Source of the DNA: a virus
DNA: 32,829 nt
Reading direction: 5' to 3' (one strand)
IMG/VR virus record: IMGVR_UViG_3300045988_113022
Both the position numbers and the translations under genes were made by a program. The notes under the pieces are model-generated. The model had not been told where the DNA came from, made no database searches, and saw nothing but the letters and a program-made list of their open reading frames with translations. Positions 1-32,829 of the stretch are shown here, piece by piece (positions within the stretch are counted from its first letter, which is position 1; each line of letters begins with the position of its first letter).

Positions 1-55
1 TTCATAGACTATATAATCCAGGCTGTAAATTTGACGATATGGCGGTTTTTATTGG
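1..55. repeat. Terminal direct repeat identical to 32775..32829, interpreted as the assembly overlap of a circular or circularly permuted genome
   Basis: nt 1-55 (TTCATAGACTATATAATCCAGGCTGTAAATTTGACGATATGGCGGTTTTTATTGG) recur exactly as the last 55 nt. An ORF reads through the join in frame. Confidence 0.9.
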
Positions 56-821
56 CACAAGGCAAGGAGAAGGCAAGTCAACGCTGATAAGGTGGTTAGC
101 TTTAGATGATAAGTATTTTACTGAGGTTTCCGAGTTTGACGGTCAGCGTGGCATAGAAGCCCTTGAGGGTGCGTGGATTTGCGAGGTAGGCGAAATGTTA
201 GCTATGGTAAAAGCACAGCAGCAGGAAGCCGTTAAAGCGTATCTGACACGCATTAACGATAAGTATCGCAAGCCATTTGACAAGCGTGTGACAGAACACC
301 CTCGGCAGTGTATCTTCATCGGAACGACAAACAAGGCGCAGTTTCTCACCGATAAGACAGGGAACCGCAGATTTTACCCCGTTGTCGTTCACCAGTCGGG
401 CTATGAGTTGTTCGAGCACGAAGAAGAAATCAAAGCTGACATAAAGCAGTGCTGGGCTGAAGCATTGCACTTGTTCAAAGAAAACAAGCTCCTGCCGTAT
501 GCCGACCGCAAGCTGATTGATGTTATCCGCAAGGAGCAGGCAAACGCCGTTGAAGATGATTACCGTATCGGTATGATTACCGAGTACTTAAACGGCAAGT
601 CAGAAGTATGCGTTTTGCAGATATGGCAACACGCCTTGAATATGGGCGAATTTTCCAAACCGACTAAAAAAGACAGTCAGGAAATCGGCTTGATAATGCA
701 AAACCTTGAAAACTGGAAGAAACAGCCATATCCGAAAACTTTCGCAGGCTTCGGCTCGCAGCGATGGTGGCGAAAAGAAGGCTGTGCGGACATAGACAGC
801 TTTGACGATATAGACCTTTAA
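1..821 (+). CDS. VirE-family P-loop replication protein (primase/helicase-associated), C-terminal part. Continues from 32126..32829 across the circular junction.
   Basis: Walker A GTRQGEGKST. Blocks such as YNPGCKFDDMAVFIG, CIFIGTTN and GNRRFYPV are typical of the virulence-associated protein E domain. Codon phase at nt 3 matches the open frame at the window end. The track ORF 39..821 is the same frame. Confidence 0.8.
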   Translation, partial: HRLYNPGCKFDDMAVFIGTRQGEGKSTLIRWLALDDKYFTEVSEFDGQRGIEALEGAWICEVGEMLAMVKAQQQEAVKAYLTRINDKYRKPFDKRVTEHPRQCIFIGTTNKAQFLTDKTGNRRFYPVVVHQSGYELFEHEEEIKADIKQCWAEALHLFKENKLLPYADRKLIDVIRKEQANAVEDDYRIGMITEYLNGKSEVCVLQIWQHALNMGEFSKPTKKDSQEIGLIMQNLENWKKQPYPKTFAGFGSQRWWRKEGCADIDSFDDIDL

Positions 822-1118
822 CGGCAAAAATCACTACAAAGTACCCCGAAAATCTACTTTGTAGTGGACTTTGTAGAGGACTTTGTAGAGGTCGTAAAAC
901 CGCACTACAAAGCCGTTTTCCCTTAGTTAAACTACAAACTCTACAATAAATTGAGTATTTATATAAAATAGGGATAAAAAAATAAAAATGTATTTTTATA
1001 TTTTATGCAAACTTTGTAGAGTTTGTAGAGGTTTTCTGAAAAACCGCATAACAAAGCCAAAAACAAGCACTACAACGCAAAATCTACATTGTAGTTTGTA
1101 GAGAAAGGAGCTGAAACA
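822..1118. repeat. Iteron / inverted-repeat / AT-rich noncoding element, copy 1 (candidate origin or regulatory hub)
   Basis: Many copies of CTTTGTAGAG and its complement CTACAAAG. Tandem GGACTTTGTAGAG x2 at 866-890. Perfect 15-nt inverted repeat CTACAAACTCTACAA (932-946) / TTGTAGAGTTTGTAG (1014-1028) around a 67-nt AT-rich spacer. Palindromes CTACTTTGTAG (854-864) and CTACATTGTAG (1084-1094). Confidence 0.8.
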
Positions 1119-1322
1119 ATGGAACGTAAAGAATTTTTGCTGATATGTCAGAAAAACGCTATAAGCGGAGATGAACTTGTAACGTATGATGGGATTAAAT
1201 ACCGCCCGATAAGCTATGCGATACGGTTTGACAAGCTCGGCAAGGCAAAGCATACGGCGGTTTTGCATTCGGTTAAAGCCGATAGCATTTTGAACGTCAG
1301 CCTTGAAGATGTCGAGCTGTAA
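1119..1322 (+). CDS. Hypothetical protein (67 aa)
   Basis: ORF with AAAGGAG RBS 8 nt upstream. No recognisable motif. Confidence 0.5.
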   Translation: MERKEFLLICQKNAISGDELVTYDGIKYRPISYAIRFDKLGKAKHTAVLHSVKADSILNVSLEDVEL

Positions 1323-1325: not shown

Positions 1326-1354
1326 TTGACATTTTCAAGGCAAAATGGTATAAT
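1326..1354 (+). promoter_or_regulatory. SigA/sigma-70-type promoter (TTGACA-17-TATAAT, TG-extended -10)
   Basis: TTGACA 1326-1331, 17-nt spacer ending in TGG, TATAAT 1349-1354. Confidence 0.6.
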
Positions 1355-1401: not shown

Positions 1402-2028
1402 TTGAAAATCACTGAAATAAGCGTAAAGGAGCTAAAGCCTTACGCAAAAAACACGAAGAAGCACGACAAGGCGCAGATTGCAAACGTTGCAGAGAGTATC
1501 AAGCAGTATGGCTTTGTTCAGCCAATAGTCGTTGATAAGGACAACAACATTGTTATCGGACATTGCAGATATGAAGCGGCTAAAAAGCTGAAGATTGAAA
1601 CCGTTCCCTGCGTTTGCGTTGATGAGCTGACGGACGAACAAGTAAAGGCTCTGCGGATTGTTGATAACAAGAGCAATGAAAGCCCGTGGAATGTTGAAGC
1701 CCTGTTAGACGAGTTGGAAGATATTGATTTAAGCTGTTTTGATTTTGGCTTTGATGAAACCGAAAACGTTAAAGAAGAAGAAAGCAAAAACAAGCAGAAC
1801 AAAGAGTTAGAAAAAATGGAGCTGAAACAGTTTGAACACCACGATTACGTTGTTTTTGTTTTTGATAACACGCAAGATTGGCTTAATGTTGTAAACAAGT
1901 TCGGATTGAAAAGAATAGACGCAGGTTGGGAAAAGAGAAAAGTCGGACTTGGGAGGGTTGTAAAAGGTGAAAGACTTATTGAAGCGCTTGGATGTGAAAA
2001 TTTTGATACTGAGCCGTTCGAGGTTTAA
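1402..2028 (+). CDS. ParB/Srx N-terminal (ParB-like nuclease) domain protein
   Basis: TTG start 5 nt after AGGAGG. LKPYAKNTKKH...FVQPIVVD...IVIGHCRYEAAKKLKIETVPCV...ALRIVDNK matches the ParB-like domain usually fused to phage N6/N4 DNA methyltransferases. The C-terminal half is unassigned. Confidence 0.75.
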   Translation: MKITEISVKELKPYAKNTKKHDKAQIANVAESIKQYGFVQPIVVDKDNNIVIGHCRYEAAKKLKIETVPCVCVDELTDEQVKALRIVDNKSNESPWNVEALLDELEDIDLSCFDFGFDETENVKEEESKNKQNKELEKMELKQFEHHDYVVFVFDNTQDWLNVVNKFGLKRIDAGWEKRKVGLGRVVKGERLIEALGCENFDTEPFEV

Positions 2029-2716
2029 CAGTATTACTACAAACAAGCTGTTGCCAAATTTCGTTGAAATTCTTGTACCCGAAACGCAAAAAAGTGATTA
2101 TGAAAAAGCAGTCGAAAATCCAATTATTGCTATTCCTGATGAAATTAAAGGTTTGGGAGAAGTTCGAAATTGGGTTTTAGACCATTTCAAAGAACGTATC
2201 GTTATTATGATTGACGATGATATAAAATACGTTTATCGCTTGACAGGAGCTAAAAGTGAGCGTGTTGAAGATAAGGACGAAGTTCTTGACATCATTGTCA
2301 ACACAGCAGTAATGGCAGATGATGCAGGAGCTAAAGTTTTTGGATTTAATCAGAGTGATATTAGAAAGTTCAACGGTGCAGAGCCTTTTTCGCTGTGTGG
2401 TTGGCTCGGTTGTGTTATCGGCGTTATAGGTCGTGAACACAAATTTAGAAGTGACAAGTACAAAGTTGATATAGACTTTTGTATGAAATGCTTGCTGACC
2501 GACAGGATAATTTGGGAAGATAACCGTTACTTTTTTTCTCAAAGCCGAGATGATAATGTCGGAGGGAACAGCGAGTTCCGAACAGCTAAAGACTTCGAAA
2601 AGAGTTTAAACAGTTTGCAAAAAAAATGGGGTAAATACCTGATAGTCGGAATGCACAAAAATCAAATTCGTATAAGAACAAATGTTCAGAGAAAGCAGAG
2701 GTTAAAGTATGAGTGA
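1967..2716 (+). CDS. Putative GT-A-fold glycosyltransferase (DxD type), soluble
   Basis: GTG start 9-10 nt after GGGAGGG. The 62-nt overlap with the upstream gene leaves the start uncertain, and GTG 1994 is an alternative. N-terminal beta-strand KILILSRSR, then IVIMIDDDI about 85-95 aa in, as in GT-A enzymes. No TM segment. Family assignment is from pattern only. Confidence 0.5.
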   Translation: MKDLLKRLDVKILILSRSRFNSITTNKLLPNFVEILVPETQKSDYEKAVENPIIAIPDEIKGLGEVRNWVLDHFKERIVIMIDDDIKYVYRLTGAKSERVEDKDEVLDIIVNTAVMADDAGAKVFGFNQSDIRKFNGAEPFSLCGWLGCVIGVIGREHKFRSDKYKVDIDFCMKCLLTDRIIWEDNRYFFSQSRDDNVGGNSEFRTAKDFEKSLNSLQKKWGKYLIVGMHKNQIRIRTNVQRKQRLKYE

Positions 2717-3452
2717 TGTTTTAATAATCGGTTGTGGAGTTGTCGGAAACAATCTGTTAAAAGAACTTTCGGTATTAACTCCCGATGTTGTTGACAAATA
2801 CAAAAAGGAAAAAACAACAAAGAAAAAGGAAAAATACAAGTTCGGATTTGTTTGCGTAGACACGCCTTATGACAAGGAAAAAGAATTGTTTGACACAAGC
2901 GAAGTTGTTAATGCAATAAGAGAAAACGATTGCGAAATTTATGTTATAAAATCTACAGTTCCGATAGGCTTTGTTAATTCGCTCGGAAAAGAAAACATTG
3001 TTTTTTCGCCCGAGTATTACGGCGGTACACAGCATTGCAATAATTTTAAATTTGATTTTACAATTTTAGGCGGTTGTGAAAAGACTTGCAACAAGGTTAT
3101 ACAGCTTTTGCAAAAAGTGTATGACGCAAGACACAGATTTTTAAAAATGAAATCGTCGGAAGCCGAAATGGTTAAGCTGATGGAAAATTGTTTCCTTGCT
3201 ACAAAAGTTTCGTTCTGCAATTCTTTTTTTGAAATGTGCAAAGTATATAATTGTTCTTATGAAAGCGTTAGAGAGGGCTTTATCCTCGATGAGCGTTGCG
3301 GAGCTTCCCACTCGTTTGTTTATGAAGATAAACCGTACTGGGACAGTCACTGCTTGAACAAGGACACAGTTTGTGCCGCTATGCAAGGAAATGATTTCGT
3401 TAAAAATATTATCAAGTATAACGAAAGAGCAAAAAGTAGTAAAAAAATATAA
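2709..3452 (+). CDS. UDP-glucose/GDP-mannose dehydrogenase-family protein lacking the C-terminal nucleotide-sugar-binding domain
   Basis: Rossmann IIGCGVVGN, VCVDTP, IKSTVPIG, SPEY, central-domain block AEMVKLMENCFLATKVSFCNSFFEMC, and catalytic-Cys block WDSHCLNKD about 32 aa before the stop. Only 247 aa, where I recall roughly 390-440 aa for typical family members. Confidence 0.7.
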   Translation: MSDVLIIGCGVVGNNLLKELSVLTPDVVDKYKKEKTTKKKEKYKFGFVCVDTPYDKEKELFDTSEVVNAIRENDCEIYVIKSTVPIGFVNSLGKENIVFSPEYYGGTQHCNNFKFDFTILGGCEKTCNKVIQLLQKVYDARHRFLKMKSSEAEMVKLMENCFLATKVSFCNSFFEMCKVYNCSYESVREGFILDERCGASHSFVYEDKPYWDSHCLNKDTVCAAMQGNDFVKNIIKYNERAKSSKKI

Positions 3453-3460
3453 AAAACGTA

Positions 3461-3489
3461 TTGATTTTAAACCTTGTCTGTGATATAAT
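3461..3489 (+). promoter_or_regulatory. SigA-type promoter (TTGATT-17-TATAAT, TG-extended)
   Basis: TTGATT 3461-3466, 17-nt spacer ending in TGTGA, TATAAT 3484-3489. Confidence 0.6.
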
Positions 3490-3525
3490 TATTATAGAGC
3501 AGAAGCTCAGAAAGGAAGTAATTGT

Positions 3526-4071
3526 ATGAAATTATTTACACAGAGAGGTTATGATTTTTACGAGGTTGCAAGTGCTTTGCAGAAGTCGATAAGACGTGGA
3601 GATGTTAAACTTGCAGGGTATATGGCGTTAGAACTGTTCCCAAAGTATTCTGAATATTGTTGGAAAAGGCTGTTAACAATATCGGCAGAGGACTGTTACG
3701 GCGTGATAACAAAAGAGATAATGGCGTTGTATGACGCTTTTCACGTTATCAACAAAGGGAAAAAAGGTGAGGAACTGAAAGGCAGGGTTTTTATTTCAAA
3801 GGCTGTGATTCTTCTGTGTTCTGTTAAGCATAATCGTGACGCTGATTTACTCAGCAATTACGTTTATGATGCGTATTGCGGAGTATCTGATGAAATGATT
3901 GAAAAATTGTTTGACGAAGTAAGAAAAGAGCCTATTGACGTTCCCGAATATGTTTTTGACTGTCACACTTTGAAAGGGAAAAGAGCAGGGAAAACGAAAG
4001 AAGATTTTTTTAAGGAAGAAGAAGCGGCGTTAAAAAATAAACAAGCTTCTATTTTTGAATTTAAAGTATAG
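3526..4071 (+). CDS. Stand-alone MgsA/RarA C-terminal (MgsA_C-like) domain protein
   Basis: YDFYEVASALQKSIRRGDVKLAGYMALEL...LLTISAEDCYG...ISKAVILLCSVKHNRDA parallels the RarA block YDLISALHKSVRGS..DAALYW...LAIASEDVG...AIVYLACAPKSNA. There is no AAA+ ATPase module. Confidence 0.65.
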   Translation: MKLFTQRGYDFYEVASALQKSIRRGDVKLAGYMALELFPKYSEYCWKRLLTISAEDCYGVITKEIMALYDAFHVINKGKKGEELKGRVFISKAVILLCSVKHNRDADLLSNYVYDAYCGVSDEMIEKLFDEVRKEPIDVPEYVFDCHTLKGKRAGKTKEDFFKEEEAALKNKQASIFEFKV

Positions 4072-4075
4072 AGGT

Positions 4076-4216
4076 GATTAAACAATGCCAAACGTACAGA
4101 ATTTAAAGCCAGGCGCATACAAGCTGTCAAAGGAAGAAATGGCGAAAGGTGGAAGAAACTCGGCAGTGAAATGCTTGCCGCTATGTTGATGAAAAAAGCA
4201 ATGAATGGCGATGTCA
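4076..4216 (+). pseudogene. Degenerate duplicate of the terS 5' end (RBS + first ~26 codons, 91-nt internal deletion, frameshifted)
   Basis: 4076-4161 aligns with 5461-5546 and 4162-4216 with 5638-5693, with a few substitutions. The deletion joint lies at the 11-nt direct repeat GGAAGAAACTC that occurs twice in the intact gene. The reading frame breaks after about 30 codons. Confidence 0.8.
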
Positions 4217-4412
4217 GCGCTCCCGAAAGGCTTAGTGAAATCGTTCGGGCTTACCGAGATGTATCCGAAATGCCCCTCGCTTTTTAACAAAAGAGGTCAC
4301 GACCTGTTTTATGGTTTGCTTTATGAGTACGGCGTGAGAAAAGTAACAGAATATCGCTCTGATACCAGTTTTGAAAAAACTTATGGATTTTTCGTTTTTT
4401 AGCTTAAAATTG

Positions 4413-4441
4413 TTGACTTTTGTGTTAAATTGTGATATAAT
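4413..4441 (+). promoter_or_regulatory. SigA-type promoter (TTGACT-17-TATAAT, TG-extended)
   Basis: TTGACT 4413-4418, 17-nt spacer ending in TGTGA, TATAAT 4436-4441. Confidence 0.6.
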
Positions 4442-4494
4442 AATAATGTAGCAAAAAGCTACGAAAATCACATTGATTAAAGGAGAAAAAAGTT

Positions 4495-5277
4495 ATGCCG
4501 ATGATTTATGAACCCGCAGGAAAAGCTAGAGAGTACAGCCCTCTCGCACTCAACGTTTATTTAGGTTGTAGTCACAAATGCGAGTATTGTTACGCAAATG
4601 CGATGGCAAGAAGGAACGGAAACAGTTGTTATTTTGGAAACCCAAGCCCGAGAACAAAGGTTCTTGAAACACTTCCGAAAGAACTCAAAAAATGCAAAAG
4701 AGAGCAGGTGCTTCTTTCGTTTATCGGAGATGCTTATTGCGAAACAACAGACGATAATGCACTTACACGTTCTGTTCTTGAAATGCTTCTCGAAGCTAAA
4801 ATGCCTGTTGCAATCCTTACAAAAGGTGGAAAGCGTTGTCTTAAAGACCTTGACCTTTTTAAACGTTTCGGCGAGCATATTCAGATAGGCGCAACACTTA
4901 CGTTTGACAATGACGCTGATTCCCTCAAGTGGGAAAGTGGTGCGGTTCTTCCGTCAGAAAGACTTGAAACGCTTAAGATTTTACACGATAACGGAATTAG
5001 GACATTTGTAAGTTTTGAGCCTGTTATCGTTCCCGAACAGAGTTTACATCTTATGGAACAGAGCCTTGATTTTGTAGATGTTTATAAAGTCGGAAAGCTT
5101 AACAATTACAAAGGTCTTGACAAAGCTATAAACTGGACTGATTTTCTTGAGAAAACAGTAAAGCTTTTAAGAGAAAACAAAAAATCATTTTATATCAAAC
5201 ACGATTTAAGACTTGCCGCTCCGACCGTTAGACTTTACGGAAACGAAGTCCTTGCGGACGAACACAATGTCCAGTAA
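4495..5277 (+). CDS. Radical SAM protein (SplB/COG1533 'DNA repair photolyase'-like)
   Basis: LNVYLGCSHKCEYCYA contains the CxxxCxxC cluster in the context typical of SplB-like radical SAM enzymes. RBS AAAGGAG. It has its own promoter and terminator. Confidence 0.8.
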   Translation: MPMIYEPAGKAREYSPLALNVYLGCSHKCEYCYANAMARRNGNSCYFGNPSPRTKVLETLPKELKKCKREQVLLSFIGDAYCETTDDNALTRSVLEMLLEAKMPVAILTKGGKRCLKDLDLFKRFGEHIQIGATLTFDNDADSLKWESGAVLPSERLETLKILHDNGIRTFVSFEPVIVPEQSLHLMEQSLDFVDVYKVGKLNNYKGLDKAINWTDFLEKTVKLLRENKKSFYIKHDLRLAAPTVRLYGNEVLADEHNVQ

Positions 5278-5288
5278 ATTGTTTTATA

Positions 5289-5321
5289 GCGGTGGGCTTA
5301 TAGCCTGCCGCTTTTTATTTT
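5289..5321 (+). terminator. Rho-independent terminator
   Basis: 9-bp stem GCGGTGGGC/GCCTGCCGC (two G-U pairs), 5-nt loop, then TTTTTATTTT. Confidence 0.6.
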
Positions 5322-5337
5322 AGGAGGAAGCATTATA

Positions 5338-5466
5338 ATGACGATTGACGAAGCAAAGGAAATCATCAGAAAAACGAAAAGCCCGTATCTAAAAAGGGAT
5401 ATGGAAAAATTTATTAAACGCACTCAGAAAAAGCTAAAAGAAAAAGCTTTGCAGAAAGGAGATTAA
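5338..5466 (+). CDS. Small hypothetical protein (42 aa, basic)
   Basis: ATG 7 nt after TAGGAGGAAG. It is not in the ORF track because it is under 60 aa. No homology recognised. Confidence 0.35.
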   Translation: MTIDEAKEIIRKTKSPYLKRDMEKFIKRTQKKLKEKALQKGD

Positions 5467-5469
5467 ACA

Positions 5470-5814
5470 ATGCCAAACGCACAGAATTTAAAGCCGGGAG
5501 CATACAAGCTGTCAAAGGAAGAAATGGCGAAAGGTGGAAGAAACTCACATAAAAAGATGAGGGAGCGCAAGCTCCTTCGTGAATGCCTTTCCGAACTTTT
5601 GCAAATGGAATATGACACGAAACAGGGGAAGAAACTCGGCAGTGAAATGCTTGCCGCTATGCTGATGAAAAAAGCTATGAACGGCGATGTCAAGGCTTTT
5701 GAAGTCCTGCGTGACACAGCAGGAGAAAAGCCAGTTGATAAGGTTATGGTTGCAGATGTCGAAAAGACTATCATTGACGAAGTGGAGAAAATGGTAAAAG
5801 ATGAAACCGATTGA
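5470..5814 (+). CDS. terS: Putative terminase small subunit
   Basis: 114 aa, lying upstream of terL across the interposed methyltransferase gene. The basic N-terminus (NLKPGAYKLSKEEMAKGGRNSHKK) resembles small terminases of Firmicutes phages. The call rests on position and pattern only. Confidence 0.55.
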   Translation: MPNAQNLKPGAYKLSKEEMAKGGRNSHKKMRERKLLRECLSELLQMEYDTKQGKKLGSEMLAAMLMKKAMNGDVKAFEVLRDTAGEKPVDKVMVADVEKTIIDEVEKMVKDETD

Positions 5815-6769
5815 ATTATGGCACGGTGATTGCCTTGAATTGATGAAAGACATTCCTGACGGCTCTGTTGATTTGGTGCTGGCTGACCCGCCGTATGGAA
5901 CAACAGCTTGCAAATGGGATAGCGTTATTCCTTTTGAACCGATGTGGGAACAGTTGAAACGCATTGTAAAAAGAGGAGGTACAATTGTTCTCTTTGGTAG
6001 CGAGCCATTTTCAAGTCTTTTGAGGATAAGCAACATTGATTGGTATAAATACGATTGGGTTTGGGAAAAAGAGCAAAGCTCAAGCGGATTACAATCCAAA
6101 ATTGCACCAATGAAAAAGCACGAAAATATAAGTGTGTTTTTCCAAGCACCAACTGATGATACAACAAACGCATATCAATCCTTGAAAGAGTATTTTCAAT
6201 CCGAAAAAGAAAAAAGCGGATTAAATTCAAAGCAAATCAAAGAGCTGCTTGGAAACTATATGTCAAGTCATTATTTTACAAATGGATCGCAGTTTTGCAT
6301 ACCGTCTGAAGAAAACTATAAAAAATTGCAAAGCACGGGATTTTTTCAAGTGCCGTTTGAAGAAATAAGAAAGCAATATAAAGAAGATTGCCAAAACACA
6401 TACAATCCACAAATGACAGAGGGAAAGGCATACAAGGGGCATTTCGCGCCCGGAGCAGAGGTACACGGAAAGGCAACCCATTATGTGAAAGATAATAGCG
6501 GAACAAGATACCCTACAAGTATTTTGAAATTCAACAGAGCAAAAGGACTGCACCTGACACAAAAACCCGTTGCCTTGCTTGAATACCTTATCCGTACATA
6601 TACTAACAGCTGTGAAACCGTTCTTGACTTTACGATGGGTAGCGGAAGCACTGGCGTTGCTTGCGTAAACACTAACCACCGCTTTATCGGCATTGAACTT
6701 GATGAGGGATATTTCAACACCGCAAAAAAAAGAATTGAGGAAGCCTATGACGAGAGAACAAGCGGTTAA
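5801..6769 (+). CDS. DNA methyltransferase, beta-class N6-adenine/N4-cytosine family (DPPY)
   Basis: Motif IV VLADPPYG near the N-terminus and motif I FTMGSGSTGVAC near the C-terminus, with LTQKPVALLEYLI between them. Overlaps terS by 14 nt and terL by 23 nt. Confidence 0.85.
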   Translation: MKPIELWHGDCLELMKDIPDGSVDLVLADPPYGTTACKWDSVIPFEPMWEQLKRIVKRGGTIVLFGSEPFSSLLRISNIDWYKYDWVWEKEQSSSGLQSKIAPMKKHENISVFFQAPTDDTTNAYQSLKEYFQSEKEKSGLNSKQIKELLGNYMSSHYFTNGSQFCIPSEENYKKLQSTGFFQVPFEEIRKQYKEDCQNTYNPQMTEGKAYKGHFAPGAEVHGKATHYVKDNSGTRYPTSILKFNRAKGLHLTQKPVALLEYLIRTYTNSCETVLDFTMGSGSTGVACVNTNHRFIGIELDEGYFNTAKKRIEEAYDERTSG

Positions 6770-8015
6770 ATTTCTGCTTGAACAGCCTGCAAAATTTGGT
6801 GCAATGATAGGTTTCGACAAATTGACCGATTTGCACAACAAATGGATAATCGAGATGATAAGAGGTGACGGCGACAAGACACTGCAAGCTCACCGTAATT
6901 CGTACAAAACGACTTGTGCTTCCATCGCCCTTGCAATAATCATTATCTTGCTCCCGACACGCAGAACAATGTTTATGAGAAAAACGGACGCAGATATAAA
7001 GGAAATCGTCAAGCAAGTGCAGAAGATATTGCAGGACGAACATACGATATATTTTGTCCAGTCGATATACGGGGTTAATCTGAAATTGACGGTTGCAACG
7101 GCGACAGAAGTTTCAACAAATTTAAGCGTTGACGCTAAAGGTACGTCACAGCTTGTAGGCACTGGTTGCGGCGGCTCGATAACTGGTAAGCATTTCGATT
7201 TTATTTTCACGGACGATATTGTCAACGTACAAGACCGAGTATCAAAAGCCGAGCGTGACAGAACTAAGCTGATTTATCAAGAGTTGCAGAACATCAAAAA
7301 CAGGGGCGGCAGGATATTTAACACAGGTACGCCGTGGCACGCAGACGATTGCTTTACGATTATGCCGACACCCGAAGTTTATGACTGCTATTCGACAGGG
7401 CTTCTCTCCGCCGAGCAAATAGAAGAAAAAAAGCAGTCAATGACAGCTTCCCTTTTCGCCGCAAACTATGAGTTACGGCATATCGCCGCTGAGGACGTTA
7501 TTTTTACAAGCCCTCAGATAAACGCCGAGCCTTGCAACGTTGAACAGGGCGAAGGACATATTGATGCCGCTTACGGCGGTGAAGATTACACTGCGTTTTC
7601 TATCGTCCGAAAGAAAGACGGCAAGTATTACGTTTTAGGCAAGATGTGGCGAAAACACATTGATGATTGCCTTGATGAAATACAGTCGCTCCGACAGGCT
7701 TTCAACGCAGGCAAGATTTTTTGCGAAGACAACGGCGACAAAGGATATTTGGCAAAAGAACTCCGCAGGCGTGGCGAAAGAGCCGTCCTTTATCACGAAA
7801 ATATGAATAAATTTCTGAAAATCACGTCCTATCTGAAAGCAGAGTGGAACAACGTGATTTTTGTTGCAGGAACGGACAAAGAGTTTATCAATCAGATTTG
7901 CGACTATAACGAAAATGCGGAACACGATGATGCACCCGATAGTGTCGCAAGTCAGATAAGAAGGCTATGGAACAAGAAAGATAAGGTATCAACGTATCAA
8001 TCAATTTTGAGGTGA
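6747..8015 (+). CDS. terL: Terminase large subunit
   Basis: ATG 6747 follows GAGGAAG, so the track start at 6693 is less likely. ATPase blocks HFDFIFTDDIVN and TGTPWHADD. RNaseH-like nuclease blocks IDAAYGGEDYTAF, FCEDNGDKGY and HDDAPDS. Confidence 0.8.
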   Translation: MTREQAVKFLLEQPAKFGAMIGFDKLTDLHNKWIIEMIRGDGDKTLQAHRNSYKTTCASIALAIIIILLPTRRTMFMRKTDADIKEIVKQVQKILQDEHTIYFVQSIYGVNLKLTVATATEVSTNLSVDAKGTSQLVGTGCGGSITGKHFDFIFTDDIVNVQDRVSKAERDRTKLIYQELQNIKNRGGRIFNTGTPWHADDCFTIMPTPEVYDCYSTGLLSAEQIEEKKQSMTASLFAANYELRHIAAEDVIFTSPQINAEPCNVEQGEGHIDAAYGGEDYTAFSIVRKKDGKYYVLGKMWRKHIDDCLDEIQSLRQAFNAGKIFCEDNGDKGYLAKELRRRGERAVLYHENMNKFLKITSYLKAEWNNVIFVAGTDKEFINQICDYNENAEHDDAPDSVASQIRRLWNKKDKVSTYQSILR

Positions 8016-10387: not shown

Positions 10388-10843
10388 ATGGGTGTTAAAG
10401 TAACAAGTAAAGATAACACGGACGAAGTGCTTGACCGTATGGAAAAGGCTTTTGAACGTGGCTTAAAGGCTTGCGGAATGACCGCAGAAGCATATGCAAA
10501 AGACACGCTTACCGACCAAGTATACAGTGTTGACGAAAGCAAGCTTGACTATGTGCTGACAGGCAGACTGCGAAACAGCATAACTTACGCTATCGGGGGC
10601 AAGTCTGCCGCCATAAGCAGTTACAAAGCTGATAAGCCAGGCTATAAAGGCGGCTCTTATTCGGGCAATGCACCCGAGGAAGATAAGCCATACGTTGCAG
10701 TAGGTACGAACGTAAAGTATGCTATCGGCATTGAAGAAGGAACGCATCGTAAAAAAGGAGCAGTGCATTTTCTGTTGAAAGCGGCTTCCGGACATCAAGA
10801 AGAGTACGAAAAGCTGATAAAAGAAAGCATGGAAAACGCTTGA
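10388..10843 (+). CDS. HK97 gp10-family-like virion protein
   Basis: GRLRNSITY...VAVGTNVKYAIGIEEGT resembles the gp10 family signature. Its position ahead of the scaffold gene is atypical. Confidence 0.5.
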   Translation: MGVKVTSKDNTDEVLDRMEKAFERGLKACGMTAEAYAKDTLTDQVYSVDESKLDYVLTGRLRNSITYAIGGKSAAISSYKADKPGYKGGSYSGNAPEEDKPYVAVGTNVKYAIGIEEGTHRKKGAVHFLLKAASGHQEEYEKLIKESMENA

Positions 10844-10868
10844 CAAAAAAGAAAAAATTGTATATAAT
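10840..10868 (+). promoter_or_regulatory. SigA-type promoter (TTGACA-17-TATAAT)
   Basis: TTGACA 10840-10845, 17-nt spacer, TATAAT 10863-10868. Confidence 0.5.
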
Positions 10869-11026: not shown

Positions 11027-11066
11027 GAGCCGTAGGAAATAACTCCTGCGGCTCTTTTTATCTTTT
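11027..11066 (+). terminator. Rho-independent terminator
   Basis: 11-bp stem GAGCCGTAGGA/TCCTGCGGCTC (one G-U pair), 6-nt loop, then TTTTTATCTTTT. Confidence 0.6.
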
Positions 11067-12811: not shown

Positions 12812-12832
12812 ACGATGAAAGGACGGCGTGAT

Positions 12833-13258
12833 ATGCTGACGGAATTATGTAGAGAGTGTCGCAACTGGTTCACAACCGACAGCGACAAGCACAGCGGTGA
12901 CTTTACAATTTCAGACGGCGGTATCACGCCGTTTGATTTTGTACTGAGCGGGCAGTATTTCCGCATTATGGGAAGTCACTTCAATGACGGGGTTTATAAA
13001 AACGTTCCCGAAGAAGTCGCAAAACTGACGGCTGAAACGTTTACAGGGCAGATATGGGCAATGCGTGTTCCTCCTGCGTTTATTGACCTATCGGGGAAGA
13101 TTGAAGAGTACATCGCCAAAAACGAAAAAGAAATTTCTCCGTACACATCGGAGAGTTTCGGCGGTTATAGCTACACGAAAGCGGTAAACGATAAAAACGT
13201 TCCGCTGATGTGGCAAGAAGTTTTCAACAGCCAGTTGAAAGTTTGGAGGAAAATATGA
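12833..13258 (+). CDS. Hypothetical head-tail connector-region protein
   Basis: ATG 12833 has AAAGGA 9 nt upstream, whereas the track start at 12815 has no RBS. Called from position only. Confidence 0.4.
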   Translation: MLTELCRECRNWFTTDSDKHSGDFTISDGGITPFDFVLSGQYFRIMGSHFNDGVYKNVPEEVAKLTAETFTGQIWAMRVPPAFIDLSGKIEEYIAKNEKEISPYTSESFGGYSYTKAVNDKNVPLMWQEVFNSQLKVWRKI

Positions 13259-13608
13259 GTTTACTAAGCGAAGCAATGACCGACTGCGTGTTTTTGAACA
13301 AAAGCAAGGTTTCGGACGGTGAAGGCGGTTTCGTGGTAGAATGGACAGAAGGGGCTTCTTTCAAAGCGGCGATTGTTTTTGACAACTCGATGGAAGCCCG
13401 TACCGCCGAAAAGGCAGGGGTTACAAGTCTTTACACGGTTTCTGTTCCTATTTCGGTGGCGATTGAGTACCACGATGTTTTCAAACGCTTGTCGGACGGC
13501 AAGATTTTCCGTGCTACGTCTGACGGTGACGACAGCAAAACGCCCGCAAGGGCTACATTCCAAATCGCCCAGTTCACCGCCGAGGAGTTTGTGCCGACTA
13601 CAAAGTAG
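13255..13608 (+). CDS. Putative head closure / head-tail joining protein
   Basis: ATG 13255 follows GGAGGAAAAT and overlaps the upstream stop. Size and position fit a head-tail joining protein. Confidence 0.45.
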   Translation: MSLLSEAMTDCVFLNKSKVSDGEGGFVVEWTEGASFKAAIVFDNSMEARTAEKAGVTSLYTVSVPISVAIEYHDVFKRLSDGKIFRATSDGDDSKTPARATFQIAQFTAEEFVPTTK

Positions 13609-13818
13609 GCACTTTTCGGGCATTGTAGAGGGGAATGTAGTAGACTTTGTAGAGGTGCTAAAGTGGCTCTACGACTGGCTTTAAGGGTAGTTAAACTACA
13701 AACTCTACAAAATTTTTTATATTTATATAAAATAGGAGATTTTTTATAAAAGTAAATTTTATATTTATAGAAAACAATGTAGTTTTTGTAGTTTGTAGTA
13801 GAGAACGGGGGTTAGGAA
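13598..13818. repeat. Iteron / inverted-repeat / AT-rich noncoding element, copy 2 (paralog of 822..1118)
   Basis: The 23-nt TAGTTAAACTACAAACTCTACAA at 13688-13710 is identical to 924-946. The 16-nt ATTTATATAAAATAGG at 13721-13736 is identical to 957-972. AGACTTTGTAGAGG at 13642-13655. Palindrome CTACAAAGTAG at 13598-13608. Imperfect inverted arm TTTTTGTAGTTTGTAGTAGAG at 13783-13803. Confidence 0.8.
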
Positions 13819-14190
13819 ATGACAAAAGCGGCGGCACTGCATAGCTTTTATAGCTCGTTCGGGCTGACGGCTTACGAAGAAAATTCCGTCCCCGATGACG
13901 CAGAATTTCCGTATATTACTTATAATGTCACAACAGACAGCTTCGGCAATTATTCAACCGCAATGACCTTTTCGCTTTGGTATCGTTCAACGAGTTGGAA
14001 AGCGGTAAATGCAAAGTGCGAGGAAATCTCAGCGGCGATAGGTTTAGGCGGTCAGCTGATAGACTGTGACGGCGGTAAAATATGGATTAAAAGAGGACAG
14101 CCGTTTGCAAATTCAACAGGGGACGCAGACGATGAGTTAATAAAAAGAAAGATTATAAACGTGAGTGCAGATTACCTCACGTTAAACTGA
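13819..14190 (+). CDS. Hypothetical tail-completion-region protein
   Basis: RBS GGGGGTTAGGAAATG. Lies just upstream of the major tail gene. No motif recognised. Confidence 0.4.
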   Translation: MTKAAALHSFYSSFGLTAYEENSVPDDAEFPYITYNVTTDSFGNYSTAMTFSLWYRSTSWKAVNAKCEEISAAIGLGGQLIDCDGGKIWIKRGQPFANSTGDADDELIKRKIINVSADYLTLN

Positions 14191-14209
14191 CGAAAGGATA
14201 AGGTAAACA

Positions 14210-14821
14210 ATGGGTAAATTTACGGTTATACCGAAAGATACGTTTGACGATTTACAGCTTGATGCAGGTGTGCTTTTAAAAAACTTTGTACCTGCAACAG
14301 CCGCCGCTCCGCAGGATAGCGATATTATCTGCGCTACGACAGGCGGCATAAACGCAACTTGTACGCCGACATATAGCGATTTAGGCGAGGACGTTGACAA
14401 CTGCCCGAACAATATGAAGGAACTTAAACACCTTGACGGTTGGGATTGCACGCTTGCTTTTACATCACTGGGAATGAGTACAGCGGCTATTAAAATGGCG
14501 CTTGGCAGTGCGGATATTGACACGCAGGACACGACAAAGGTCACGCCGAGAAGAGATTTAAAGCAGTCTGACTTCTCGGACATTTGGTGGGTAGGCGACA
14601 AAGCTGACGGCGGTATGGTCGCTATACAGCTTAAAAATGCCCTCTCGACAGGCGGTTTTTCGTTACAGACAACCAAAAGTGGCAAGGGTCATATTTCTGT
14701 CACACTGACAGGTCATGTGTCAATTGAAGCGCAGACCGATATGCCTATGGTCTTTTACTCGACAAGCGGCACAGCAGAAGCAACACAGGCTGACAGCGGC
14801 ACTGACAGCGGTACAGTTTAA
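14210..14821 (+). CDS. Putative major tail (tube) protein
   Basis: 203 aa, immediately upstream of the chaperone/frameshift pair and the tape measure gene. Ser/Thr-rich C-terminal tail. Confidence 0.6.
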   Translation: MGKFTVIPKDTFDDLQLDAGVLLKNFVPATAAAPQDSDIICATTGGINATCTPTYSDLGEDVDNCPNNMKELKHLDGWDCTLAFTSLGMSTAAIKMALGSADIDTQDTTKVTPRRDLKQSDFSDIWWVGDKADGGMVAIQLKNALSTGGFSLQTTKSGKGHISVTLTGHVSIEAQTDMPMVFYSTSGTAEATQADSGTDSGTV

Positions 14822-14844
14822 AAGCAAAACAGGAGGAACAGCAG

Positions 14845-15971: not shown

Positions 15972-16125
15972 TAAGTTTATCTATAGTCCGGCGGCGTAAG
16001 TAATTCGCCGTTGAGTGTGAGTGAACCTTACCAGGGGTGTGGGAGAAATCCTGCTAACGGGGGAAATCTAAGTGCAATAGCATACGACAATCCCGTGCCA
16101 AGTCCTAAGATATAAATAATTTTAC

Positions 16126-16154
16126 TTGTATAACAGGTGAAATTGTGTTATAAT
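16126..16154 (+). promoter_or_regulatory. Possible SigA-type promoter inside the intron, upstream of the HNH ORF
   Basis: TTGTAT-17-TATAAT with TGT-extended -10. It lies in the intron core, so the match could be coincidental. Confidence 0.35.
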
Positions 16155-18583: not shown

Positions 18584-18584
18584 A

Positions 18585-31572: not shown

Positions 31573-32139
31573 GTGATTTATGAGTACATAGCAGAAGAAA
31601 TCAAAGCACGAGTAAAAATCGGCGATGTGCTTTTTATGTATGGTTTTTCGGCAAATCCGAACAGCAAAAAACGCATACCTTGTCCGTTGCATAACGGCAA
31701 AGACAACAATTTCAGTTTTACTGACAAAATATATCATTGTTGGGTTTGCGGAGAACACGGAGATGTGATAAACCTTGTTCGCAAATTGTTTGGCTTATCT
31801 TTCGCCGAAGCTTGCGTAAAGATTAACCTTGATTTCGGGCTTGGCTTACCGTGTGGAGAAAAAATGTCATTGCGTGATAAATACAGGCTTGACAAAAAAG
31901 CAAAAGAACGCAAGGCAATAGCTCTTGCAGAAAAAGCTGAAACAGAACGCATTGACAACGAATTTTGGGATGCCTTGCACGAGTGGAGCAGACTTGACAG
32001 ACATCTTCGTGAACATAAACCAAAAACGCCAGATGAGCCATTGCATCCGTTGTTTGTAGAAGCATTGCAGAAAATCGGCTATGCTGAGTATAGGCTTGAC
32101 ATAGCAGAAACGAGGAAAAATAAAAATGATGGACGATAA
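31573..32139 (+). CDS. DnaG-type CHC2 zinc-finger protein (primase zinc-binding domain only)
   Basis: CPLHNGKDNNFSF...YHCWVCGEHGDVINLV is the zf-CHC2 signature. GTG start 10 nt after AAGGAGG. No TOPRIM domain recognised. Confidence 0.75.
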   Translation: MIYEYIAEEIKARVKIGDVLFMYGFSANPNSKKRIPCPLHNGKDNNFSFTDKIYHCWVCGEHGDVINLVRKLFGLSFAEACVKINLDFGLGLPCGEKMSLRDKYRLDKKAKERKAIALAEKAETERIDNEFWDALHEWSRLDRHLREHKPKTPDEPLHPLFVEALQKIGYAEYRLDIAETRKNKNDGR

Positions 32140-32829
32140 CCGCATACAGGCAATCACCGCTCCCGAGCAGCTATTTGACACAGAGTTGCTTCTTGACGTG
32201 TTCGATGAGGAAAATCCGCCCGAAGAACAGGCAAGGCTTGTTTCCGTGATGAGTATAAAGGCAAGAATGCTTGGAGTATACAAAGAATTTGCGGCAACGA
32301 TAAAAGCGTTCCAGAAGGCGCAACAGAAGTTGGCTAACGAGTACCAGCGGATAAATGCAAAGCAAAACGGCGGTATGATTTTGGATTTTGCGAGTGACGG
32401 AAAACCGCTAGCAACGATTGACAATTTTGTGCAGGTAATCGAAAACGACAGCAAGTTTGATAATCTGCGGTTTAATCTGTTGACCGAAAGCCCTGAAAAA
32501 ATAATTGACGGCAAAGCAGAGCGGTGGACAGATGCGGACGATGCCGAATTAAGGCGGTACATAGAAAAGAAGTATAAATTCCATTCGGCGCAGAAAAGCG
32601 ATGATGCGTTGAGGATAGTCCTTAAAGGTCGGCAATATCACCCGATAAGGCAGTTGATTGACCATTTCGAGTGGGACGGTGTAAGCAGGATAAACACATT
32701 CCTCACGAAGTGGACGAAATGCGATGATAACGAGTATACACGGGAAGTATCACGCTTAATCTTTTCAGGCGGCATTCATAGACTATATAATCCAGGCTGT
32801 AAATTTGACGATATGGCGGTTTTTATTGG
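32126..32829 (+). CDS. VirE-family replication protein, N-terminal part (open at the window end, continues at nt 1)
   Basis: ATG after GAGGA. The frame is open to the last nucleotide, and the track omits it because there is no stop. HPIRQLIDHFEWDGVSRINTFL is the typical VirE N-terminal block. Joined with 1..821 it gives about 489 aa. Confidence 0.8.
   Translation, partial: MMDDNRIQAITAPEQLFDTELLLDVFDEENPPEEQARLVSVMSIKARMLGVYKEFAATIKAFQKAQQKLANEYQRINAKQNGGMILDFASDGKPLATIDNFVQVIENDSKFDNLRFNLLTESPEKIIDGKAERWTDADDAELRRYIEKKYKFHSAQKSDDALRIVLKGRQYHPIRQLIDHFEWDGVSRINTFLTKWTKCDDNEYTREVSRLIFSGGIHRLYNPGCKFDDMAVFI
32775..32829. repeat. Terminal direct repeat identical to 1..55
   Basis: Exact 55-nt identity with the window start. 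Confidence 0.9.

What the first reader, a model, noticed from the sequence alone, without database searches (positions are those of the whole stretch)
822..1118. Iteron array with a perfect inverted repeat around an AT-rich core, downstream of the replication genes
This 297-nt gap is packed with the 8-10-nt motif CTTTGTAGAG / CTACAAAG in both orientations. It contains tandem GGACTTTGTAGAG units with 12-nt spacing, CTAC-N3-GTAG palindromes at both ends, a repeated AAAACCGCAYWACAAAGCC block (896-914 and 1040-1058), and a perfect 15-nt inverted repeat flanking 67 nt of almost pure A/T. This architecture is typical of an iteron-type replication origin with a DNA-unwinding element, and it lies directly after the VirE gene. 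It also sits upstream of a ParB-domain gene, so a centromere or silencing-site role is possible, and a phage-specific promoter or operator hub cannot be excluded.
Basis: partly seen in the sequence, partly recalled or inferred. Interest (0 to 1): 0.65.

Follow-up and report, generated by a model that had tools for sequence, protein, structure and literature searches.

The report
Phage replication origin, present in two copies
The repeat-packed gap after the VapE gene is most likely the phage's replication origin, of the type known from staphylococcal pathogenicity islands, but this phage lineage carries a second complete copy between its head and tail genes.

Summary
Region 822-1118 holds 13 TGTAG cores (12 TTGTAG). 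A perfect 15-nt inverted repeat (932-946 / 1014-1028) flanks a 67-nt core that is 87% A+T.

The origin interpretation is well supported.
- The gene ending at 821 encodes a 489-aa VapE protein homologous to SaPI1 Rep1 (PDB 7PDS; E 4e-49; full-length fold match). Rep1 is an initiator-helicase whose C-terminal winged helix binds hexanucleotide iterons immediately 3' of rep, arranged as opposed pairs around an A+T-rich centre.
- A primase-type gene lies upstream.
- In dozens of VapE relatives the same architecture follows the stop codon. The repeat word changes by clade and tracks the Rep C-terminal domain (partial Mantel r 0.48, 0/2000 permutations).
- ParB is absent from most loci that carry arrays.
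- The phage has four perfect sigma-70 promoters elsewhere.

Unexpected: a complete second module sits at 13597-13818, inserted between head and tail genes. Of the 21 contigs of 30 kb or more that carry this origin type, 19 hold two such widely separated copies, and the two copies evolve in concert.

This is a new member of a known origin type. The two-copy arrangement is an unexplained variant. No experimental data were available.

The parts
32126..32829 (+). N-terminal part of the VapE/Rep initiator-helicase gene. The gene (489 aa) continues at window position 56 because the window is a circular genome with a 55-nt terminal overlap.
   Evidence: Searches give the overlap and the reconstructed ORF. 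One search gives Pfam VapE-like_dom with E 4.8e-63.
1..821 (+). C-terminal part of VapE/Rep: the SF3 ATPase core and a predicted C-terminal winged-helix domain. Protein residues 404-476 form the domain, with recognition helix DSQEIGLIMQNLE and wing WKKQPYPKTFAGFGSQRWWRK. The stop codon is at 819-821.
   Evidence: PDB 7PDS (SaPI1 Rep1), E 4.3e-49. AF2 model with pLDDT 84.9 and H-S-H-H-hairpin topology. Foldseek top hits are all six 7PDS chains, E about 1e-26, 453-465 aligned columns.
31573..32139 (+). Primase-type gene (188 aa, DnaG CHC2 zinc ribbon) immediately upstream of rep. This gives the gene order pri-rep-ori.
   Evidence: PF01807, E 5.8e-11; a homologue lies upstream of VapE in 51 of 80 related loci.
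834..909 (.). Origin copy 1, left iteron arm. TGTAG cores lie at 834-838 (-), 860-864 (+), 872-876 (+), 884-888 (+) and 905-909 (-). The arm includes the CTAC-N3-GTAG palindrome at 854-864 and the AAAACCGCACTACAAAGCC box at 896-914.
   Evidence: the cores are nearly invariant among close relatives.
932..946 (-). Origin copy 1, inner iteron pair to the left of the A+T core (CTACAAACTCTACAA). It is one arm of the perfect inverted repeat.
   Evidence: (I3).
947..1013 (.). Origin copy 1, A+T-rich core (67 nt, 87% A+T). It is the proposed DNA-unwinding element.
   Evidence: second most A+T-rich 60-nt window of the genome.
1014..1028 (+). Origin copy 1, inner iteron pair to the right of the core (TTGTAGAGTTTGTAG). 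It points opposite to the left pair.
   Evidence: (I3).
1035..1103 (.). Origin copy 1, right arm. It holds the second AAAACCGCATAACAAAGCC box (1040-1058) and TGTAG cores at 1070-1074 (-), 1084-1088 (-), 1090-1094 (+) and 1097-1101 (+). It ends at the ribosome-binding site of the 67-aa ORF.
13597..13818 (.). Origin copy 2, a complete second module between the head-completion gene and the first tail gene. Left-arm cores lie at 13598 (-), 13624, 13636 and 13648 (+). The inner pair is at 13696-13710 (-). The A+T core at 13711-13777 is 91% A+T. The right-hand cores lie at 13778, 13787 and 13794 (+).
   Evidence: structural relatives have no spacer at this position; 19 of the 21 contigs of 30 kb or more with this origin type hold two such widely separated copies; the copies evolve in concert.
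1119..1322 (+). A 67-aa ORF of unknown function between the origin and the ParB-domain gene. It is listed as context and is not proposed as part of the origin.
   Evidence: no Pfam family; homologues in only 7 of 80 loci.
1326..1354 (+). Perfect sigma-70 promoter (TTGACA-17-TATAAT with an upstream TG) that serves the ParB/DNA-modification genes. It shows that the downstream genes do not depend on the array for transcription.
   Evidence: an analogous promoter follows the array in L151-L156.

Best explanation
The 297-nt gap is the phage's replication origin. It is of the kind used by self-loading SF3 initiator-helicases of the VapE/Rep family, for which SaPI1 Rep1 is the experimentally studied example.

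Proposed mechanism:
1. The winged-helix domain at the C-terminus of the VapE protein recognises the hexanucleotide iteron TTGTAG (extended consensus aCTTTGTAGaG).
2. Two inner iteron pairs point in opposite directions and bracket a 67-bp core that is 87% A+T.
3. Rep oligomers assemble on each side, melt the core and load themselves as replicative helicases, one for each direction.
4. The small zinc-ribbon primase encoded just upstream, together with the host replisome, does the rest. No DNA polymerase gene was detected among the roughly 40 ORFs scanned against Pfam.
5. The outer iterons (three or four direct copies on the left, a cluster on the right) probably provide cooperative Rep recruitment.

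The second complete module at 13597-13818 binds the same protein. It is either a second firing origin or a distal partner that Rep pairs with the first, for control or enhancement.

What is shown: the anatomy, the homology of Rep, the predicted winged helix, the pri-rep-array synteny, the co-variation of word and C-terminal domain, and the fixation of two copies. What is inferred: binding, melting, helicase loading and the role of copy 2.
For: 1. Homology. Rep is homologous to SaPI1 Rep1 (7PDS, E 4.3e-49). The AF2 model (pLDDT 84.9) matches 7PDS over almost its full length (E 1e-26, TM 0.61-0.69). Its C-terminus has winged-helix topology.

2. Published anatomy. PMC9371898 describes SaPI origins as follows: immediately downstream of rep, 6-12 penta- or hexanucleotide iterons, a central A+T-rich region, at least two iterons on each side pointing in opposite directions, and a primase gene upstream. 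Every one of these points is met here.

3. Comparative data. A word array with the same layout follows the VapE stop codon in 44 non-redundant Rep variants from viral contigs. The same holds in prophage and MAG loci from Clostridia, Bacteroidales and Novosphingobium. The layout is 3-4 direct words, a spacer, 2 inverted words, an A+T core, then 2-3 words. The word differs by clade: CTACAA, GTTACA, TTTACA, GGTATAC, GGAAACC, TGGAAC, GTTGAC, CGTTTAC, GTAGTC and others.

4. Co-variation. Word similarity is predicted by identity of the Rep C-terminal domain after controlling for the ATPase core (partial Mantel r 0.48, 0/2000 permutations). The converse partial correlation is -0.19. Reps that share the helix KDSIEITQIITNIPGW but differ in the wing use different words.

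5. Linkage. The primase homologue is upstream in 51 of 80 loci. ParB is downstream in only 24 of 80, and the downstream genes vary.

6. Other features. The two A+T cores are the two most A+T-rich 60-nt windows of the genome. No DnaA-box match (TTATCCACA, up to one mismatch) lies in either array, which fits a self-loading initiator.
Against: - There is no experimental evidence of binding or of origin activity for this phage or its close relatives.
- A second full copy inside the late operon is not part of the SaPI model. It would fit a repeated regulatory element equally well at first sight.
- Each inner iteron pair lies about 16 nt from a TATAAA/TATAAT-like hexamer. A promoter role, alone or in addition, is therefore not excluded.
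- The co-variation of word and C-terminal domain is correlative. The Mantel permutation controls only partly for shared ancestry, and the 74% clade is over-represented.
- The Rep C-terminal domain did not align to 7PDS by sequence. The winged helix rests on a predicted model.
- The 188-aa primase-like protein shows only the zinc ribbon. No catalytic domain was identified.
Confidence: 0.8

Rival explanations
1. Both modules are phage-specific, activator-dependent promoters or operators. A phage DNA-binding protein would bind the TTGTAG words upstream of, over and downstream of a weak core promoter and so switch on the middle/late operons. The 69-aa sigma-70 region-4-like protein at 23348-23557 is one candidate.
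For: - Both modules sit at module boundaries, directly upstream of a ribosome-binding site and gene.
- A TCTACA-N16-TATAAA/TATAAT geometry is conserved in copy 1, in copy 2 and in the 74% clade.
- A stand-alone region-4 helix-turn-helix protein exists.
- Direct repeats upstream of late promoters are known for lactococcal phage TP901-1 Alt (from my own knowledge, not checked here).
Against: - The promoter-like geometry is mirror-symmetric. It occurs on both strands, facing inward, which is unexpected for a promoter.
- The matches score only 9 of 12, whereas the phage has four 12-of-12 sigma-70 promoters at 1326, 10840, 23638 and 31365. One of these lies just downstream of copy 1, and a like one follows the array in L151-L156.
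- The array tracks VapE rather than the downstream genes, and its word tracks the VapE C-terminal domain.
- Phages L207-L209 and L234 carry a region-4 homologue (58-81% identical), and L207 also a near-identical tail module. They have no TTGTAG array in 16-20 kb.
Confidence: 0.1
2. The arrays are centromere-like or silencing sites (parS) for the ParB-domain protein encoded at 1402-2028.
For: A ParB_N-domain gene lies 280 nt downstream of copy 1. Multiple dispersed sites are typical of parS.
Against: - A ParB homologue is found downstream of VapE in only 24 of 80 loci, while arrays persist in the others.
- The protein has only the N-terminal ParB domain. No helix-turn-helix domain was detected.
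- It sits in a DNA-modification cluster (TAGT glycosyltransferase, sugar dehydrogenase-like protein, radical SAM, methylase).
- The words are short 5-6 bp iterons around an A+T core, not 16-bp palindromes.
Confidence: 0.03
3. This rival concerns copy 2 only. Copy 1 is the origin. Copy 2 is not an origin but a Rep-binding control locus. It would titrate Rep or pair with copy 1 (handcuffing or looping), in the way incA does in plasmid P1 or crr does in satellite phage P4.
For: - Copy 2 uses the same iterons and evolves in concert with copy 1.
- Of the 21 contigs of 30 kb or more with this origin type, 19 hold two copies about 10-13 kb apart.
- P4 alpha, a primase-helicase, needs ori plus a distant crr that carries the same iterons. 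P1 incA is an iteron cluster outside the origin. Both statements are from my own knowledge and were not retrievable in the library.
Against: Copy 2 keeps the whole origin anatomy: opposed inner pairs and the most A+T-rich core of the genome at 93%. A mere titration site would not need these features.
Confidence: 0.3
4. The two modules are copies of a small non-autonomous mobile element (MITE-like, with terminal inverted repeats) and have no role in replication.
For: - Copy 2 is an insertion relative to phages with homologous head and tail genes.
- The modules are rich in inverted repeats.
- Insertions and mosaic junctions occur at their edges in L123, L126 and L207.
Against: - There are exactly two copies, at fixed positions, in all near-complete genomes of two clades.
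- No target-site duplication is evident.
- The copies are 67% identical, so the duplication is old.
- The position after VapE is conserved in relatives down to 30% protein identity, with clade-specific words. This fits a host function and not transposition.
Confidence: 0.02

Closest known systems
SaPI/PICI replicons: SaPI1 pri-rep-ori (Rep1, PDB 7PDS; PMC9371898)
   Same: - The initiator-helicase is homologous in sequence and fold.
- A C-terminal winged helix is predicted here and known in Rep1.
- The primase gene lies upstream.
- The origin starts just after the rep stop codon.
- It has 6-12 hexanucleotide iterons and a central A+T-rich region with at least two iterons on each side in opposite orientation.
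   Different: - The carrier is a complete 32.8-kb phage with its own structural genes, not a satellite island. The likely host is a gut clostridial bacterium (Acutalibacteraceae-type MAGs), not Staphylococcus.
- The iteron word is different.
- There are two complete origin modules per genome instead of one.
Satellite phage P4: alpha primase-helicase with ori and crr (own knowledge; Ziegelin, Lanka, Calendar and colleagues)
   Same: A primase-helicase-type initiator has a C-terminal DNA-binding domain that recognises short iterons in two separated clusters on one small genome.
   Different: - P4 alpha fuses primase and helicase.
- crr differs in structure from ori, whereas here copy 2 is a full replica of copy 1.
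- Homology of this Rep to alpha was not tested.
- The literature on P4 could not be retrieved in the library.
Origins of SF3-helicase initiators of eukaryotic DNA viruses (SV40 large T antigen, papillomavirus E1)
   Same: Short 5-6 bp words are arranged as inverted pairs next to an A+T-rich, easily melted segment. Two hexamers of a self-loading SF3 helicase assemble on them. More distant fold matches to D5/E5-type helicases appear.
   Different: The origin-binding domain has a different fold and position (N-terminal to the helicase in T antigen and E1, a C-terminal winged helix here). There is no sequence relationship between the origins.
Iteron plasmids with auxiliary iteron clusters (P1 oriR/incA, F, RK2; reviewed in PMC4980987, seen)
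   Same: Initiator-specific iterons lie beside an A+T-rich unwinding element. A second iteron cluster outside the origin can control replication by titration or handcuffing.
   Different: Plasmid Rep proteins are not helicases and need DnaA and DnaB. No DnaA box is present in either array here. The iterons are 5-6 bp instead of about 19-22 bp.
Putative origin of Streptococcus thermophilus phage Sfi21: a non-coding repeat region downstream of the primase-like gene (own knowledge; Foley et al. 1998)
   Same: It is a non-coding, repeat-rich region directly after the primase/VirE-like replication gene of a Firmicute siphophage, and it has been proposed as the origin.
   Different: It was not verified here, because the paper was not found in the library. 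A single copy is described.

Membership tests
SaPI-type Rep/iteron origin (self-loading SF3 initiator-helicase replicon) | The adjacent gene encodes a Rep initiator-helicase of the VapE/SF3 type. | tested here: met
   Pfam VapE-like_dom, E 4.8e-63. 7PDS (SaPI1 Rep1), E 4.3e-49. Foldseek top six hits are 7PDS chains, E about 1e-26, 453-465 aligned columns.
SaPI-type Rep/iteron origin (self-loading SF3 initiator-helicase replicon) | Rep has a C-terminal winged-helix DNA-binding domain. | tested here: met
   The AF2 model shows H404-413, S418-420, H421-428, H439-451 and a beta hairpin at 455-475, with pLDDT about 80-89. This is a prediction only. The domain did not align to 7PDS by sequence.
SaPI-type Rep/iteron origin (self-loading SF3 initiator-helicase replicon) | The origin lies immediately downstream of the rep ORF. 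| tested here: met
   The stop codon is at 819-821 and the first iteron core is at 834-838. The same placement is seen in 44 non-redundant relatives.
SaPI-type Rep/iteron origin (self-loading SF3 initiator-helicase replicon) | The origin holds six to twelve penta- or hexanucleotide iterons. | tested here: met
   12 TTGTAG and 13 TGTAG cores in 297 nt.
SaPI-type Rep/iteron origin (self-loading SF3 initiator-helicase replicon) | There is a central A+T-rich region with at least two iterons on each side pointing in opposite directions. | tested here: met
   CTACAAACTCTACAA (932-946), a 67-nt core of 87% A+T, then TTGTAGAGTTTGTAG (1014-1028).
SaPI-type Rep/iteron origin (self-loading SF3 initiator-helicase replicon) | A primase gene lies upstream of rep. 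| tested here: inconclusive
   The 188-aa product of 31573-32139 has a DnaG-type CHC2 zinc ribbon (E 5.8e-11), but no catalytic domain was detected. The gene is syntenic in 51 of 80 loci.
SaPI-type Rep/iteron origin (self-loading SF3 initiator-helicase replicon) | Iteron specificity is determined by the Rep C-terminal domain. | tested here: met
   This is correlative. Partial Mantel r 0.48, 0/2000 permutations, for C-terminal domain versus word after controlling for the ATPase core. Wing variants map to words.
SaPI-type Rep/iteron origin (self-loading SF3 initiator-helicase replicon) | Rep binds the iterons, melts the core and supports replication of an origin-bearing plasmid. | not testable with these tools
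   This needs EMSA or footprinting and a two-plasmid replication assay.
Phage-inducible chromosomal island (SaPI/PICI) as an element | The element is a satellite that lacks structural genes and depends on a helper phage. | tested here: not met
   The window is a complete circular phage genome with portal, head-completion, tail-module and lysis (M23 peptidase) genes identified by Pfam or by synteny. It therefore works like a SaPI replicon but is not a PICI.
ParB/parS partition or silencing site | The arrays co-occur with their ParB, and ParB has a DNA-binding helix-turn-helix domain. | tested here: not met
   ParB is found in 24 of 80 VapE loci, whereas arrays were found in 44 non-redundant Rep variants. 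Only the ParB_N domain was detected.
Sigma-70 promoter | There are -35 and -10 hexamers at 16-18 nt spacing, oriented toward the downstream gene. | tested here: inconclusive
   Matches of 9 of 12 occur on both strands, facing inward, in copy 1 (940-969 on + and 1029-1000 on -), and on the + strand in copy 2. The genome's clear promoters score 12 of 12.
DnaA-dependent iteron plasmid origin | DnaA boxes lie next to the iterons. | tested here: not met
   No TTATCCACA match with up to one mismatch lies in 822-1118 or 13597-13818.

The most novel reading that the evidence does not exclude
This phage lineage has fixed two complete Rep-iteron origin modules per genome of about 33 kb. The second was inserted between the head and tail genes, at a mosaic junction. 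The two would work as a pair in one of two ways:
- as two firing origins; or
- as an origin plus a Rep-bridged distal partner that sets replication timing, couples replication to late-gene expression, or promotes modular recombination.

A duplicated full origin has not been described for SaPI-type Rep replicons.
Probability: 0.4. Interest if true: 0.55.

Novelty: new member of a known kind. Interest (0 to 1): 0.42.

Why it matters
- **Locating origins.** The analysis gives a simple rule that can be checked: in phages and prophages that carry a VapE/Rep initiator-helicase, the origin is the word array right after the rep stop codon. The rule could therefore locate origins in many uncultivated gut phages.
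- **A recognition code.** The natural series of Rep C-terminal wings paired with different 5-7 bp words is raw material for working out how this winged helix reads DNA. It could also guide the design of orthogonal replicons for clostridial hosts.
- **The second copy.** The fixed second origin copy is a concrete, testable oddity. It could show whether small phages use dual origins or origin pairing.

Tried and rejected
- **15-mer scan.** An exact 15-mer scan of viral contigs returned mostly chance hits. Only about a dozen loci were real relatives, and these were picked out afterwards by word clustering.
- **Annotated phage records.** The only matches, MT835558 and MT835551, share just a ParB-like stretch. 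They have no VapE and no arrays.
- **Portal search.** It reached only 12 close relatives and did not reach the GTTACA-word clades.
- **Second copy in other clades.** Three attempts were inconclusive. A search with an L151 downstream protein ran into the contig end. An exact 18-mer from L145 matched only once in its contig, and 13 kb of that contig showed no second array. Loci from genome contigs show no second same-word array within +/-10 kb, but copy 2 in the window lies 12.7 kb away, so absence is not proven.
- **GC skew.** It is uninformative, because it rises monotonically with all genes on one strand.
- **RNA genes.** No Rfam family and no tRNA were found in the window.
- **Literature.** Papers on P4 crr and Sfi21 ori were not retrievable in the library.
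- **L036, L058 and L064.** These have similar words but share no proteins with the window, so they gave no test.

Full report
**What the window is.** The last 55 nt of the window repeat the first 55, so it is a circular assembly of 32,774 bp. All plausible genes are on the + strand.
- The gene that ends at 821 starts at 32126 and encodes a 489-aa VapE-family protein.
- Upstream lie a 188-aa protein with a DnaG-type zinc ribbon (31573-32139), a dATP/dGTP diphosphohydrolase-like protein, an ERCC4 nuclease, an AAA_24 ATPase and YopX.
- Downstream of the gap come a 67-aa ORF, a perfect sigma-70 promoter, and a DNA-modification cluster (ParB_N, TAGT glycosyltransferase, a UDP-sugar dehydrogenase-like protein, radical SAM, an N6/N4 methylase).
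- Packaging, head, tail and lysis genes follow.
- Close relatives occur in contigs binned with Acutalibacteraceae and other Clostridia from gut samples.

**Checking the observation.**
- GGACTTTGTAGAG units start 12 nt apart.
- CTAC-N3-GTAG palindromes lie at 854-864 and 1084-1094.
- The AAAACCGCAYWACAAAGCC block occurs at 896-914 and 1040-1058.
- A perfect 15-nt inverted repeat lies at 932-946 and 1014-1028, around 67 nt that are 87% A+T.

TTGTAG occurs 38 times in the window against 15.1 +/- 4.2 in shuffles, and none of 100 shuffles reached 38. Nineteen of the 38 lie in two short regions. TGTAG cores are 27 times denser inside those regions than outside. ParB is not the next gene: a 67-aa ORF and a 12-of-12 sigma-70 promoter lie between it and the array. 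The array is also not unique.

**The second module.** Region 13597-13818 lies between the head-completion gene and the first tail gene. It aligns with the first array over about 200 nt and reproduces its whole plan:
- outer cores at 13598, 13624, 13636 and 13648;
- the same inner pair within an identical 23-mer, TAGTTAAACTACAAACTCTACAA;
- an A+T core of 91%;
- three cores on the right.

The two cores are the two most A+T-rich 60-nt windows of the genome.

**The neighbouring protein.** The VapE protein matches one solved structure strongly: 7PDS, the SaPI1 Rep1-DNA complex (E 4.3e-49). An AlphaFold model built on 42 homologues (pLDDT 84.9) has the six 7PDS chains as its best PDB matches. The values are E about 1e-26, 453-465 aligned columns and TM 0.61-0.69, well ahead of NrS-1, SaPI5 PriRep5 and poxvirus D5/E5 helicases. 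Residues 404-476 of the model form a helix-strand-helix-helix-hairpin unit, which is a winged helix.

The paper that reports 7PDS (PMC9371898) states the following about SaPI Rep proteins.
- They are self-loading initiator-helicases.
- Their C-terminal winged helix recognises penta- or hexanucleotide iterons.
- Six to twelve iterons lie immediately downstream of rep and form the origin.
- An A+T-rich region sits at the centre.
- At least two iterons on each side point in opposite directions.
- A primase gene lies upstream.

The window meets each of these structural points. No DnaA-box match (up to one mismatch) lies in either array, which fits a self-loading initiator.

**Comparative evidence.** A search of viral contigs with the Rep C-terminal half gave 80 loci at 30-100% identity. 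In the 74% clade the same TTGTAG architecture follows the stop codon. In other clades the architecture is kept but the word changes. Examples are TTTGTAACA, TTAGTTACAC, TTTACA, CGGTTAC, GTTGAC, TCGGTT, TGGAAC, GGAAACC, GGTATAC, CGTTTAC, GTTGACA and GTAGTCA. The common plan is three or four direct words, a spacer, two inverted words, an A+T core of 50-75 nt, then two or three words that end at the next gene's ribosome-binding site. The same holds in prophage and MAG loci from Clostridia, Bacteroidales and an alphaproteobacterium, Novosphingobium, where GTCCAC occurs nine times.

The genes after the array differ between clades. A ParB homologue is present in 24 of 80 loci. The zinc-ribbon primase is upstream of VapE in 51 of 80.

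Among Reps that share the helix KDSIEITQIITNIPGW, different wing sequences go with different words, and similar wings go with the same word. Over 44 non-redundant Reps, identity of the C-terminal domain predicts word similarity after controlling for ATPase-core identity (partial Mantel r 0.48, 0 of 2000 permutations). The converse partial correlation is negative. This is correlation and not proof, but it is the pattern expected if the Rep C-terminal domain reads the iterons.

**Rivals.**
- Promoter or operator hub. This reading rests on a TCTACA-N16-TATAAA/T geometry shared by both copies and the 74% clade, and on the position in front of genes. Against it, the geometry occurs on both strands, facing inward. 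It scores 9 of 12, whereas the genome has four 12-of-12 promoters at 1326, 10840, 23638 and 31365. In L151-L156 a consensus promoter follows the array, as in the window. Phages with a sigma region-4-like homologue (58-81% identical), one of them (L207) also with a near-identical tail module, have no TTGTAG array in 16-20 kb. A subsidiary promoter activity of the A+T core is not excluded.
- ParB centromere. This is disfavoured by the lack of co-occurrence and by the ParB_N-only protein sitting within a modification cluster.
- Mobile element. This reading does not fit two fixed positions, old divergence, and conservation of the post-VapE position down to 30% protein identity.

**The second copy as the real oddity.** Phages whose head-completion and tail genes are 70-93% identical to the window's have those two genes abutting, with no spacer. 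Copy 2 is therefore an insertion. In L207 the tail module is 91-98% identical, while the genes to the left are 28-76% identical. Copy 2 thus sits exactly at a mosaic junction.

A gapped pattern specific for this origin type found 45 stretches in viral contigs. Of the 21 contigs of 30 kb or more, 19 hold two copies about 10-13 kb apart. One further contig shows one exact match. An unrelated 44-kb contig shows two modules 440 nt apart.

Within a genome the two copies are more alike (66.7% in the window, 69.2% in the 74% clade) than copies at the same position in the two clades (61.4% and 56.7%). The copies therefore evolve in concert, as expected if one protein constrains both or if they exchange sequence. 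Among close relatives the TGTAG cores are almost invariant, while the spacers and the base after the core vary.

I could not establish whether clades with other words also have a second copy.

**Mechanism proposed.** Rep's winged helix binds the TTGTAG iterons. Opposed inner pairs position Rep oligomers on both sides of the A+T core. The core melts and Rep loads itself as the helicase. The zinc-ribbon primase and the host replisome complete initiation.

Copy 2 binds the same Rep. Because it keeps the opposed pairs and the most A+T-rich core of the genome, I lean toward a second firing origin (about 0.4). A Rep-bridged control or enhancer partner is the main alternative (about 0.3). P4 ori/crr and P1 incA would be precedents for that alternative, but I recall them from memory and did not verify them here.

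Binding, melting and firing are all inferences.

**Verdict.** It is a new member of a known kind, a SaPI-type Rep/iteron origin, carried here by a complete gut phage and not by a satellite. The conserved two-copy arrangement and the broad word/wing co-variation series are the parts worth a follow-up.

Noticed in passing
window 1402-6769 and 30161-30601: A DNA-modification gene cluster follows the origin. It comprises a ParB_N-only protein, a TET-associated glycosyltransferase (TAGT), a UDP-glucose/GDP-mannose dehydrogenase-like protein, a radical SAM enzyme and an N6/N4 DNA methylase. The early region also has a dATP/dGTP diphosphohydrolase (MazZ-like). Together these suggest a hypermodified genome. 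No TET/JBP or PurZ gene was noticed.
   Followed up: partly
window 1326-1354, 10840-10868, 23638-23666, 31365-31393: Four perfect 12-of-12 sigma-70 promoters (TTGACA-17-TATAAT) lie on the coding strand, plus near-perfect ones at 4413 and 20644. Good terminators lie at 5288-5312 and 11027-11054. They outline the transcription units.
   Followed up: partly
window 896-914 and 1040-1058; L127, L147, L151, L159, L163, L169 just after VapE: A second, word-independent box (CAAAGCC/CAAAGCATTGA-like, often preceded by CCGC or CCCT) recurs in the spacers of origins whose iterons differ. This hints at a site for a conserved second factor, either host or primase.
   Followed up: no
L207 (IMGVR_UViG_3300045988_089165) compared with window 12815-23557: This is a mosaic relative. 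Its tail-to-lysis module is 91-98% identical to the window, apart from the 18543-21506 gene (65%). Its head genes are only 28-76% identical, and the junction falls exactly where copy 2 sits in the window.
   Followed up: partly
L126 4346-5000; L123 about 5094-7085: In close relatives, extra DNA is inserted at the edges of origin copy 1. L126 has a gene of about 650 nt between the VapE stop and the array. L123 has about 2 kb replacing the right arm before the 67-aa ORF. The iteron core is kept in both.
   Followed up: no
L456 6150-7050 (IMGVR_UViG_3300021579_000016, 44 kb): An unrelated contig carries two adjacent origin-like modules about 440 nt apart, built from CCTACA words. Each has opposed word clusters around an A+T core. 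No homologue of any window protein lies in the locus.
   Followed up: partly
L036/L058 about 1280-1450; L064 about 800-1100: Other unrelated phage contigs have TTGTAGAG x3 ... CTCTACAA x3, or CTGCTACA arrays, around A+T-rich spacers. In the short contigs available these are not next to a VapE gene.
   Followed up: partly
window 23348-23557: A stand-alone 69-aa protein matches sigma-70 region 4 (E 2e-7). It lies near the start of the early region, close to the perfect promoter at 23638 and to the third most A+T-rich segment of the genome (23588-23647).
   Followed up: no
window 32775-32829 = 1-55: A 55-nt terminal direct repeat marks a circular assembly. The rep gene is split across the window ends.
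   Followed up: yes
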